From Escherichia phage vB_EcoM_ESCO49, in the sequence record OM386663.1: a stretch of DNA of 64,000 nucleotides, one strand, 5' to 3'. Positions 26,916-27,058 of the stretch are shown piece by piece (positions within the stretch are counted from its first letter, which is position 1; every line of letters begins with the position of its first letter). The notes under the pieces were generated by a model. It did no database searches. It saw only the letters and a list, made by a program, of their open reading frames with translations, and was not told the DNA's origin. A program made the translations under genes and the position numbers.

Positions 26916-27058
26916 AATTATCTTTGTAGATAAGCTACCCAGACTTGCTTAAGGTCTGTAGCGATGTGACTTTTTGGGTTTAAATCTAGAATTTACCCTT
27001 TCACCCTTTGTGGTCGCATACTCACAGGTAAGCTTAATAACTTATCTACAAAGATAAT
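26916..27058. repeat. 19 bp perfect inverted repeat (AATTATCTTTGTAGATAAG) enclosing about 105 nt
   Basis: arms at 26916-26935 and 27041-27058 read directly. Confidence 0.6.

What the first reader, a model, noticed from the sequence alone, without database searches (positions are those of the whole stretch)
26916..27058. 19 bp perfect inverted repeat enclosing about 105 nt inside the tRNA cluster
AATTATCTTTGTAGATAAG at 26916-26935 is exactly complementary to 27041-27058, which would clamp a ~105 nt insert in any transcript. The insert has no tRNA features. Possibilities are a processed small RNA, a regulatory hairpin, or a recombination site.
Basis: seen in the sequence. Interest (0 to 1): 0.4.

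Follow-up and report, generated by a model that had tools for sequence, protein, structure and literature searches.

The report
Conserved structured RNA beside phage tRNA-Lys
The inverted repeat is the long closing stem of a roughly 144-nucleotide folded non-coding RNA that Felix O1-type phages keep directly in front of their tRNA-Lys gene and about 0.8 kb downstream of a Ro60-like RNA-binding protein gene; no RNA database lists it and its job is unknown.

Summary
A perfect 19-bp inverted repeat sits at 26916-26934 / 27041-27059, unique in the window. As RNA on the minus (tRNA-sense) strand, G·U pairs extend it to 24 bp.

It is not a recombination site or a plain hairpin. It is helix P1 of a conserved RNA lying 0-11 nt upstream of tRNA-Lys(UUU) in eight phage lineages: Felixounavirus, Mooglevirus, Pectobacterium and Yersinia phages, and four metagenomic relatives. 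Primary sequence differs between lineages but the architecture holds:
- a 21-29 bp P1;
- internal hairpins;
- a P4 hairpin with a conserved 9-nt loop (C-Y-U-N-W-R-C-A-A), next to the P1 3' strand;
- a covarying pairing between that loop and the segment after the P1 5' strand, read as a pseudoknot.

Covariation is strong, and G·U pairs outnumber A·C pairs 78 to 1, which places selection on the tRNA-sense RNA. Rfam has no match.

The neighbouring 471-aa gene folds as Ro60, so a Y-RNA-type role is possible. However, Pectobacterium phage Wc4-1 keeps the RNA and has no Ro60-like gene.

Best reading: a stable small RNA cut out of the tRNA precursor. Its function is unproven. This is a new RNA family of a known general kind.

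The parts
27036..27059 (-). P1 5' strand (AAUUAUCUUUGUAGAUAAGUUAUU), which is the RNA 5' end
   Evidence: It forms 24 bp with 26916-26939, the top three pairs being U·G.
27029..27033 (-). J1/2 segment GCUUA, predicted to pair with the P4 loop (UAAGC) as a pseudoknot or an alternative helix
   Evidence: It covaries with the loop across lineages: GCUAA/UUAGC, UUGCUUA/UAAGCAA, UUUGUUCA/UGAACAAG.
26998..27032 (-). P2 region (variable hairpin; contains GUAUGCGACC, shared with lineage E)
   Evidence: The structure here is only weakly supported.
26976..26998 (-). P3 hairpin GGGU-AAAUUCUAGAUUUAA-ACCC, with the conserved palindromic loop core UCUAGA
   Evidence: The loop is invariant between types A and B while the closing stem changes (GGGU/ACCC against AGC/GCU plus an outer helix).
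26940..26958 (-). P4 hairpin CAGAC-CUUAAGCAA-GUCUG, with the conserved 9-nt loop at 26945-26953
   Evidence: There are eight different stem sequences, all fully paired, and the loop consensus is C-Y-U-N-W-R-C-A-A.
26916..26939 (-). P1 3' strand (GGUAGCUUAUCUACAAAGAUAAUU), directly next to P4
26912..26915 (-). 4-nt linker UAAU between P1 and nucleotide +1 of tRNA-Lys(UUU). RNase P cleavage here would create the RNA's 3' end (inferred).
26836..26911 (-). tRNA-Lys(UUU), the invariant downstream neighbour of the element in all eight lineages
27873..29288 (-). Ro60-like (TROVE + vWA fold; Pfam DUF2828 + DUF7788) gene heading the tRNA operon, 814 nt upstream on the same strand

Best explanation
The inverted repeat is helix P1 of a gene for a discrete, roughly 144-nt structured non-coding RNA. 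The RNA is encoded on the minus strand (27059 to 26916) inside the phage's polycistronic tRNA operon.

Shown here:
- The RNA family is conserved in Felix O1-like phages and their relatives.
- It always sits 0-11 nt upstream of tRNA-Lys(UUU).
- It has a 21-29 bp terminal helix and internal hairpins.
- It has a P4 hairpin with a conserved 9-nt loop, and a covarying pairing between that loop and the junction after P1.
- Selection acts on the tRNA-sense RNA strand.

Inferred:
- It is co-transcribed with the tRNAs, from a promoter-like site just upstream of tRNA-Pro.
- Its 3' end is made when RNase P cuts at +1 of tRNA-Lys.
- Its 5' side is freed by endonucleolytic cleavage. The two-turn, near-perfect P1 duplex is the sort of substrate E. 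coli RNase III cuts, much as rRNA processing stalks and T4 species 1 RNA are cut.
- The compact core then persists as a stable small RNA that acts through its conserved loops (P4 loop, palindromic P3 loop), probably by binding a protein or another RNA.

The closest analogues by genomic position are the T4 species 1 and species 2 RNAs. The partner and the function are unknown.
For: - The repeat is real and far beyond chance.
- About 236 phage records carry it. Two sequence types (A and B) share the fold although much of the interior has diverged.
- Six more lineages have an unrelated primary sequence but the same architecture at the same place, immediately upstream of tRNA-Lys(UUU).
- Covariation on the P1 / pseudoknot / P4 columns: 96% of cells paired against 63% in shuffles and 31-39% in slid controls; 20 of 23 pairs changed on both sides; covariation score 0.905 against 0.237; 0 of 500 shuffles reached any of the five measures.
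- In P1 there are 78 G·U cells against 1 A·C cell over 27 distinct sequences, so the tRNA-sense RNA is the selected strand.
- No sigma-70-like promoter or intrinsic terminator flanks the element, and a promoter-like site lies upstream of tRNA-Pro.
- Other long leader hairpins occur in the same operon, for example 25682-25759 in front of tRNA-Leu.
- T4 carries the annotated stable RNAs rnaC and rnaD in its tRNA cluster.
- Rfam has no match, so this is not a known family.
Against: - No transcript data were available, so the existence, ends and stability of a discrete RNA are inferred.
- The segments used for the covariation count were chosen for complementarity: P1 by best pairing, and the pseudoknot strand as the best 5-mer in a 12-nt window. 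This inflates the percentage paired.
- Lineage G lacks the pseudoknot pairing at the expected place.
- The P2 and P3 folds are poorly constrained and differ between lineages.
- The element is dispensable for plaque growth in at least one isolate: Salmonella phage FG1m lacks the whole Lys-to-Tyr block.
- RNase III cleavage of P1 was not tested.
Confidence: 0.6

Rival explanations
1. The RNA is a Y-RNA-type partner of the phage Ro60-like protein encoded at 27873-29288. The protein would bind the long terminal stem and/or the P4 hairpin, whose loop resembles the UUACAGCAA motif of the neighbouring Y-like units. The RNA would tether or gate the protein, perhaps as part of the anti-defence activity reported for the Bas63 homologue gp130.
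For: - The adjacent gene folds as Ro60. All top 12 Foldseek PDB hits are Ro60/TROVE structures (E 3.5e-8 to 1.3e-5, full length).
- The protein is 34% identical over its full length to mycobacteriophage 'Ro-like RNA binding protein'. Chen et al. found YrlA RNAs in several mycobacteriophages that encode a Ro60 ortholog (PMC4201824).
- Y RNAs are described as 80-130 nt with a long 5'/3' stem and a large internal loop, encoded within 4 kb of Ro60 on the same strand, often in pairs. The element is 144 nt, has that shape, and lies 814 nt downstream on the same strand.
- In relatives a tRNA-like module in the YrlA order V-T-AS-D lies immediately upstream of the element.
- A preprint speculates that some annotated tRNA genes of the Bas63 cluster may be Y RNAs for gp130 (PMC11482910).
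- The P4 loops CUUAAGCAA and CCUUAGCAA equal the unit motif CCUUACAGCAA minus 1-2 nt.
Against: - Pectobacterium phage Wc4-1 keeps the RNA but has no Ro60-like gene anywhere in its 92-kb genome, and no stem+ACAGCAA units in the 32 kb around its tRNA cluster.
- P1 is a perfect helix without the bulge or the GNCGAA/CGAA motif that defines the known Ro60 binding sites.
- The Rfam YrlA and Y_RNA models do not hit it.
- In lineage H the loop departs from the motif, with compensating changes in J1/2. That suggests the pairing, not the motif, is what is conserved.
- The stem+UUACAGCAA units are better Y-RNA candidates for this protein.
Confidence: 0.22
2. The element acts only in cis, as a leader and insulator for tRNA-Lys(UUU). 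The long helix would keep the neighbouring tRNAs from misfolding together and provide an RNase III/E entry site so that tRNA-Lys matures efficiently. The excised piece would be waste.
For: The link to the 5' end of tRNA-Lys(UUU) holds in all eight lineages while the upstream neighbour varies. Simpler long hairpins sit in front of other tRNAs in the same operon. The helix is 21-29 bp.
Against: A processing stalk does not need a conserved 9-nt loop, a covarying loop-junction pairing, or a conserved palindromic P3 loop. The other leader hairpins in the operon lack such interiors.
Confidence: 0.13
3. The element works at the DNA level, as a recombination or cruciform site, a miniature transposable element with terminal inverted repeats, or an origin or packaging signal.
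For: It has perfect 19-bp terminal inverted repeats. The surrounding region is a hotspot of insertions and deletions: HNH genes come and go, and tRNA-Asp and tRNA-Glu are deleted in this window.
Against: Helix conservation is strand-specific: G·U pairs on the tRNA-sense strand would be A·C mismatches on the other strand, 78 against 1. There is a single copy in the window. The element stays at a fixed position relative to tRNA-Lys across lineages whose sequences are unrelated. The internal hairpins covary. No target-site duplication is visible in the flanks.
Confidence: 0.03
4. The element is a decayed tRNA, an intron remnant, or a small protein-coding gene.
For: It lies among tRNAs. A 34-codon ORF (26993-27097, minus strand) overlaps it.
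Against: ARAGORN and the Rfam tRNA model find nothing. The ORF starts in sequence that is not aligned with the relatives, near this window's deletion. Types A and B differ by indels that do not preserve a reading frame. The P4 stem does not track the tRNA-Lys anticodon stem in other lineages, so it is not an anticodon-arm copy.
Confidence: 0.02

Closest known systems
Bacteriophage T4 species 1 and species 2 RNAs (rnaC, rnaD)
   Same: Both are small (139 and 119 nt) stable RNAs of unknown function, encoded inside a phage tRNA cluster on the tRNA strand next to a tRNA and near a homing endonuclease gene. From my own knowledge, they are co-transcribed with the tRNAs and processed out, and species 1 RNA is an RNase III substrate in vitro.
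   Different: There is no sequence or structural similarity. T4 rnaC carries a tRNA-like T arm (CCGGGUUCGAAUCCCGG) and a short terminal stem. This RNA has a 24-bp terminal helix, no T arm, and a loop-junction pairing.
Y RNAs (bacterial and phage YrlA/YrlB; Thermus phage phiLo Yrl1/Yrl2)
   Same: They have a long stem formed by the 5' and 3' ends plus a large internal region, are roughly 80-130 nt, are encoded within a few kb of a Ro60-family gene on the same strand, and often occur in tandem (PMC4201824, PMC12135203). Here the Ro60-like gene lies 814 nt upstream.
   Different: There is no bulged helix and no GNCGAA/CGAA motif in or beside the stem. The Rfam YrlA and Y_RNA models do not hit it. 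The RNA is retained in a phage that lacks any Ro60-like gene. It is pseudoknotted.
RNase III processing stalks (rRNA precursors, T7 early mRNA sites)
   Same: A helix of at least 20 bp, near-perfect, formed by sequences that flank a structured RNA inside a polycistronic precursor.
   Different: Cleavage was not tested here. The enclosed RNA is small and has its own conserved loops.
Dictyostelium Class I RNAs (Rfam RF01414)
   Same: The P4 loops CUUAAGCAA and CCUUAGCAA equal the Class I 11-nt motif CCUUACAGCAA minus 1-2 nt, placed just after the 5' strand of a short stem. The neighbouring spacer units carry the full stem+UUACAGCAA design.
   Different: The element as a whole does not match the model. 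In P4 the loop consists only of the motif, and part of it is predicted to pair with J1/2. Class I RNAs are 42-65 nt RNAs described as found only in dictyostelids.

Membership tests
Y RNA (YrlA / Y_RNA type) | Encoded close to a Ro60/TROVE-family gene on the same strand | tested here: met
   The Ro60-like gene is at 27873-29288 (-) and the element at 26916-27059 (-), 814 nt downstream.
Y RNA (YrlA / Y_RNA type) | Long stem formed by the 5' and 3' ends, enclosing a large internal loop or branched region | tested here: met
   A 24-bp P1 encloses 96 nt.
Y RNA (YrlA / Y_RNA type) | Ro60-binding signature in or next to the stem (bulged helix; GNCGAAN0-1G / CGAA motif) | tested here: not met
   P1 is an uninterrupted helix. 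Type A has UGCGACC and only some type B sequences have GCCGAAG, both inside P2 rather than at the stem.
Y RNA (YrlA / Y_RNA type) | Match to the curated covariance models (RF02553 YrlA, RF00019 Y_RNA) | tested here: not met
   No hit at E up to 10 on 26890-27110. As positive controls, YrlA hits at 39.3 bits in mycobacteriophage Jubie and 39.6 bits in Klebsiella phage FBKp34.
Y RNA (YrlA / Y_RNA type) | Co-occurrence with a Ro60-family protein across genomes | tested here: not met
   Wc4-1 has the RNA but tblastn finds no Ro60-like gene over its whole genome. Seven other lineages have both, but five of those were fetched through the protein, so that sample is biased.
Y RNA (YrlA / Y_RNA type) | Physical binding to the Ro60-family protein | not testable with these tools
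   Needs RIP/CLIP or EMSA.
T4-type stable RNAs of tRNA clusters (rnaC/rnaD) | Non-tRNA RNA gene embedded in a phage tRNA cluster on the tRNA strand | tested here: met
T4-type stable RNAs of tRNA clusters (rnaC/rnaD) | Sequence or structure homology to rnaC or rnaD | tested here: not met
   The folds differ and there is no T arm.
T4-type stable RNAs of tRNA clusters (rnaC/rnaD) | Accumulates as a discrete stable RNA after processing | not testable with these tools
   Needs a northern blot or RNA-seq.
RNase III processing stalk | About two turns (20 bp or more) of near-perfect duplex RNA | tested here: met
   24 bp (21 Watson-Crick, 3 G·U) in the window, and 21-29 bp in the other lineages.
RNase III processing stalk | Cleavage by RNase III in vivo or in vitro | not testable with these tools
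   Needs a comparison of rnc+ and rnc- hosts.
tRNA / tRNA-like | Cloverleaf with D and T arm signatures | tested here: not met
   ARAGORN and Rfam tRNA-clan models find nothing.
Dictyostelium Class I RNA | Short terminal stem followed by the 11-nt motif CCUUACAGCAA, total length 42-65 nt, match to RF01414 | tested here: not met
   The element gives no RF01414 hit. Only its P4 loop resembles the motif. The neighbouring spacer units in relatives do give sub-threshold hits.

The most novel reading that the evidence does not exclude
The long-stem RNA and the neighbouring stem+UUACAGCAA units are the RNA subunits of a phage Ro60-like ribonucleoprotein; the Bas63 homologue of the protein, gp130, is reported to counter the 'ppl' defence system. 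P4 would be a minimal binding module for the protein and P1-P3 an effector arm. Because the same stem+CCUUACAGCAA signature defines the orphan Class I RNAs of Dictyostelium, those eukaryotic RNAs would then be Y-RNA-like ligands of DUF2828-type Ro-like proteins.
Probability: 0.2. Interest if true: 0.85.

Novelty: new variant of a known kind. Interest (0 to 1): 0.62.

Why it matters
Felix O1-type phages are used for typing and therapy, yet their tRNA region is annotated only as tRNAs and 'hypothetical proteins'.

- **A new RNA family.** This work defines a covariation-supported structured RNA that no database lists. It sits at a fixed position beside tRNA-Lys(UUU), which from my own knowledge is a tRNA targeted by several bacterial anticodon nucleases.
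- **Link to a Ro60-like protein.** The RNA lies in an operon headed by a Ro60-like protein whose homologue was recently reported to counter a defence system. That report guessed that Y RNAs hide among the tRNAs without naming any.
- **Testable candidates.** The analysis gives concrete candidates with coordinates: this RNA, the stem+UUACAGCAA units, and a YrlA-like tRNA mimic in relatives. The guess is therefore directly testable.
- **An unexpected motif match.** The unit motif matches that of the Dictyostelium Class I RNAs.

Tried and rejected
- **Anticodon-arm decoy.** In type A, the P4 stem (CAGAC/GUCUG) and the start of its loop (CUU) resemble the tRNA-Lys anticodon arm (CAGA-CUUUUAA-UCUG). 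In the other lineages the P4 stem does not follow the local tRNA-Lys anticodon stem. Rejected.
- **Origin of the window-specific 21 nt (AACACTTTATGAGATATCTAG).** I supposed these bases after tRNA-Tyr were the start of the HNH gene seen in vB_Si_35FD. The string is absent from that locus. Origin unresolved.
- **Spacer motifs as promoters.** The spacer motifs (CAGAAGACC ... TACAGCAA ... GGTCTGG) do not fit sigma-70 spacing, judged by eye and. They were reinterpreted as stem+motif RNA units.
- **Covariance model.** I prepared an alignment of 14 type A and B sequences for a model. MAFFT misaligned the P4 loops of the two types, so I did not build it. Homologues were found through synteny and repeat searches instead.
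- **Known ribozymes and riboswitches.** Nothing in Rfam matches.
- **Literature.** Searches for a described small RNA in Felix O1-like tRNA clusters found nothing.
- **Permuted tmRNA.** ARAGORN finds no tmRNA, and the weak Rfam tmRNA_permuted hits lie elsewhere and fall below threshold.

Full report
**The observation.** The window comes from a Felix O1-like phage. An 801-bp query around the finding matches 264 phage records, almost all Felixounavirus or Mooglevirus. ARAGORN finds 19 tRNA genes at 23353-27708, all on the minus strand. The finding lies between tRNA-Lys(UUU) at 26836-26911 and tRNA-Tyr at 27106-27193.

The exact 19-mer AATTATCTTTGTAGATAAG is at 26916-26934, and its reverse complement is at 27041-27059. 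With up to three mismatches allowed there is no other copy in the window (expected 0.09). The repeat finder reports 22-nt arms at 95% complementarity with 100 nt between them. Read as RNA on the minus strand, G·U pairs extend the helix to 24 bp. The 148-nt RNA folds at -46.3 kcal/mol against -26.2 +/- 3.2 for shuffles (z = -6.25). No tRNA and no Rfam family is detected in it, even at E up to 10 on a 221-nt slice.

**Conservation and anatomy.** A 171-nt query finds the element in 236 phage records. Two sequence types exist:
- type A: this window, finno and Felix O1;
- type B: pSJ21, NBSal004 and the Mooglevirus phages Sf18, Sf13 and KMM4.

The two types diverge strongly in much of the interior but keep the arms through compensatory changes. 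From GenBank and IMG/VR loci I collected 24 distinct A and B sequences. Both types fold into the same plan:
- a 23-24 bp helix P1;
- a variable hairpin P2;
- a hairpin P3, whose closing stem changes (GGGU/ACCC in A; AGC/GCU plus UUUCCU/AGGAAA or GUCUCUU/AAGAGAC in B) while the apical loop AUUCUAGAUU stays invariant;
- a hairpin P4 (CAGAC/GUCUG, CAGACC/GGUCUG or CAAACC/GGUUUG) with a 9-nt loop CUU(A/U)AGCAA that directly adjoins the P1 3' strand.

**More distant relatives.** These were decisive, because their primary sequence is unrelated.
- Pectobacterium phages Wc4-1, Arno18 and Arno162 (unclassified Ounavirinae) have a 27-nt inverted repeat with 115 nt between the arms directly upstream of their tRNA-Lys(UUU). 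Its P4 is CCAUC-CUUAAGCAA-GAUGG.
- Loci fetched through homologues of the neighbouring protein show the same arrangement: Yersinia phage P778, and four metagenomic phages I call lineages E to H.
- Their P4 hairpins are AAAGUC-CCUUAGCAA-GACUUU, CAGUC-CUUAAGCAA-GACUG, CUGUUC-CUUAAGCAA-GAACGG, AGAGAC-CCUAUGCAA-GUCUCU and CAACC-CUUGAACAA-GGUUG.

The loop consensus is C-Y-U-N-W-R-C-A-A. In every lineage P1 ends 0-11 nt before +1 of tRNA-Lys(UUU), while the upstream neighbour varies.

**A loop-junction pairing.** The segment just after the P1 5' strand is complementary to the P4 loop, and it changes together with the loop:

| Lineage | Junction / loop pairing |
|---|---|
| A | GCUUA / UAAGC |
| B, D | GCUAA / UUAGC |
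| C | CUUGCUUA / UAAGCAAG |
| E | UUGCUUA / UAAGCAA |
| F | UUGCUU / AAGCAA |
| H | UUUGUUCA / UGAACAAG |

Lineage G is the exception.

**Covariation count.** I built a gap-free alignment of 12 distinct cores: the top 13 bp of P1, the 5-nt junction strand and P4, joined by artificial linkers. On it, 96% of cells are paired, against 63% in shuffles and 31-39% when partners are slid. Twenty of 23 pairs change on both sides. The covariation score is 0.905 against 0.237, and 0 of 500 shuffles reach any of the five measures. One caveat applies: the P1 register and the junction 5-mer were chosen for complementarity, so the percentage paired is inflated. P4 and the double substitutions do not depend on that choice.

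**RNA or DNA, and which strand.** Over 27 distinct sequences P1 holds 78 G·U cells on the tRNA-sense strand and one A·C cell. Single-base variants include L007 U·G, L009 G·U and L039 U·G, against one C·A in L019. Arno18 turns an A-U pair of P4 into G·U. A DNA cruciform or a recombination site would not show this asymmetry. The element is therefore selected as an RNA read in the same direction as the tRNAs. No promoter-like or terminator-like site flanks it, and a promoter-like site (TTGACA-18-TAAAGT) lies just upstream of tRNA-Pro. Co-transcription with the tRNAs is the simplest inference.

**Context: a Ro60-like gene heads the operon.**
- The 471-aa ORF at 27873-29288 (minus strand) is Pfam DUF2828 + DUF7788 and PHROG 850 'RNA-binding protein'.
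- An AlphaFold model built on 44 homologues (pLDDT 87.4, pTM 0.87) gives Ro60/TROVE structures as its 12 best PDB matches: Thermus phage phiLo Ro60, Xenopus Ro and Deinococcus Rsr (E 3.5e-8 to 1.3e-5, full length).
- tblastn shows 34% identity over the full length to mycobacteriophage 'Ro-like RNA binding protein'.
- A preprint noted that the Bas63 homologue gp130 resembles Ro60, counters the ppl defence system and sits upstream of the tRNAs. It speculated that some annotated tRNA genes there may be Y RNAs, without naming any (PMC11482910).
- Y RNAs are described as 80-130 nt RNAs with a long terminal stem and a large internal loop, encoded near Ro60 on the same strand (PMC4201824, PMC12135203).

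**Does that make this element a Y RNA?** It has the general shape and the position, but several tests fail.
- It lacks the bulged helix and the GNCGAA/CGAA motif.
- It gets no YrlA or Y_RNA hit, whereas the YrlA model does hit mycobacteriophage Jubie at 39.3 bits and Klebsiella phage FBKp34 at 39.6 bits.
- Wc4-1 retains the RNA although tblastn over its complete genome finds no Ro60-like gene, and the syntenic DUF5681 gene directly flanks its tRNA cluster.

I therefore keep the Y-RNA reading as a rival at about 0.2, not as the best explanation.

**Better Y-RNA candidates nearby.** The inter-tRNA spacers hold 'units' of the form CAGAAGACC-NNN-UACAGCAA-(about 50 nt)-NNN-GGUCUGG. The NNN positions covary.
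- The window has two units, at 27353-27417 and 27513-27585 on the minus strand.
- Relatives have four. One of them encloses a tRNA-like module in the order V-T-AS-D, which is exactly the YrlA order. That module and tRNA-Asp are missing from this window.
- The same stem+ACAGCAA design flanks YrlA next to the Ro-like gene of mycobacteriophage Jubie and recurs in lineages D, E, F, H and locus L069.
- Rfam's Dictyostelium Class I RNA model (a 6-bp stem followed by CCUUACAGCAA) gives clustered sub-threshold hits next to the Ro60-like genes of two other phages. Aeromonas phage LAh_6 has four hits at 22.7-29.6 bits. Klebsiella phage FBKp34 has two hits at 23.6-25.2 bits, beside a YrlA hit. The gathering score is 41.5 bits.
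- A simple stem+motif count over 187 kb of these loci finds 31 units on the sense strand and 3 on the antisense strand. Some sense hits fall inside coding regions, and the motif alone is itself sense-biased.
- Class I RNAs are reported to be found only in dictyostelids (PMC7919456).
- The P4 loop of the finding equals that 11-nt motif minus 1-2 nt, which may or may not be meaningful.

**How it most likely works.**
- *Shown:* a conserved, strand-specific, multi-helix RNA structure sits at a fixed position 5' of tRNA-Lys(UUU).
- *Inferred:* it is transcribed within the tRNA precursor. RNase P cleavage at +1 of tRNA-Lys creates its 3' end, 4 nt past P1 in this window. The two-turn P1 duplex is a plausible RNase III target or a protective clamp. 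The core survives as a stable small RNA whose conserved loops contact a partner.

T4's rnaC and rnaD are the closest precedent by context but are unrelated in fold. Salmonella phage FG1m lacks the whole Lys-to-Tyr block, so the RNA is not essential for growth in the laboratory.

**Rejected readings.**
- Recombination site or miniature transposable element: strand asymmetry, single copy, fixed position.
- Decayed tRNA or small ORF: no tRNA-model hits, and the ORF is not conserved in frame.
- tRNA-Lys anticodon-arm decoy: the P4 stem does not follow the local anticodon stem.

**Verdict.** The finding is a real, previously unlisted structured RNA family. Its kind, a small stable RNA embedded in a phage tRNA operon, is known. 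Its fold, its fixed partnership with tRNA-Lys(UUU) and its place in a Ro60-like operon are new. Its function is open.

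Noticed in passing
window 27873-29288 (-): The 471-aa ORF (Pfam DUF2828 + DUF7788) immediately upstream of the tRNA cluster folds as Ro60 (TROVE ring + vWA domain). 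Its top 12 PDB matches are all Ro60 structures, and it is 34% identical to mycobacteriophage Ro-like proteins. Homologues head tRNA clusters in Yersinia and Klebsiella phages and in metagenomic relatives; mycobacteriophage Jubie and Aeromonas phage LAh_6 also carry the gene, with the RNA units beside it.
   Followed up: yes
window 27353-27417 and 27513-27585 (-): Two inter-tRNA 'units' have the form CAGAAGACC-NNN-UACAGCAA-(about 50 nt)-NNN-GGUCUGG, that is, a terminal stem with covarying inner pairs followed by UUACAGCAA. Dictyostelium Class I RNAs (Rfam RF01414) have the same design, as do the tandem RNAs beside Ro60-like genes in mycobacteriophage Jubie, Klebsiella phage FBKp34 and Aeromonas phage LAh_6. 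These units are likely the real Y-RNA-type partners of the Ro60-like protein.
   Followed up: partly
window 27060-27105 (-); relatives L001 763-892, L005 690-783: Relatives carry tRNA-Asp and a tRNA-like module between tRNA-Tyr and the element. The module has a T arm, an acceptor-like hairpin closed by a loop, and a D arm, in the YrlA order V-T-AS-D, and its acceptor stem covaries. This window lacks both and keeps only the 3' GGUCUGG of the enclosing unit (27060-27067). The 21 nt AACACTTTATGAGATATCTAG (about 27085-27105) is not aligned with the relatives compared and is absent from vB_Si_35FD; its origin is unknown.
   Followed up: partly
window 27593-27624 (-): tRNA-Glu(UUC) of the relatives is reduced here to a 32-nt remnant (GUUCCAGUAGACAAAUCCCUUCUGGAACGCCA). 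An internal 45-nt deletion between two CAAA repeats left only the acceptor stem.
   Followed up: partly
window 25682-25759 (-): A second long leader hairpin (about a 25-bp stem, z = -5.2) lies 7 nt upstream of tRNA-Leu(UAG). Its inner loop UUGUUGCUU is complementary to the P4 loop (UAAGCAA) of the finding. In locus L065 a similar hairpin before tRNA-Leu has arms resembling type A P1. It may be a paralogue or a kissing partner.
   Followed up: no
window 26976-26998 (-): The P3 apical loop contains the palindrome UCUAGA in types A and B. Lineages C, D, G and H instead have a hairpin loop with the palindrome AACGUU (for example GUG-UAACGUU-CAC). Self-complementary loops suggest RNA-RNA dimerisation by loop kissing.
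   Followed up: no
window 26262-26340 (-): Rfam's tRNA model scores 33.4 bits here (gathering score 29), but ARAGORN reports no tRNA. This may be a divergent or decaying tRNA.
   Followed up: no
window 26529-26633 (-) and 26346-26380: Two further structured spacers: a 27-nt imperfect inverted repeat downstream of tRNA-Ile (z = -3.9) and a 17-bp hairpin with a 1-nt loop.
   Followed up: no
L064 11647-11838 (+), Yersinia phage P778: Another long-stem RNA (27-nt arms, 138 nt between them) lies between the Ro60-like gene and the first tRNA. This window has no counterpart in its 164-nt gap, which holds only a terminator-like hairpin at 27831-27862.
   Followed up: no
L057 983-1054, Salmonella phage FG1m: The block from tRNA-Lys through the long-stem RNA to tRNA-Tyr is missing, and a 72-nt tRNA annotated as Asn sits directly after tRNA-Met. 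This looks like a deletion by recombination between tRNA genes.
   Followed up: partly
window 23527-24309 and 24443-25000 (-): Two protein genes (DUF7217 and DUF7338) are embedded within the tRNA cluster. DUF7217 is syntenic in all the related loci examined.
   Followed up: no
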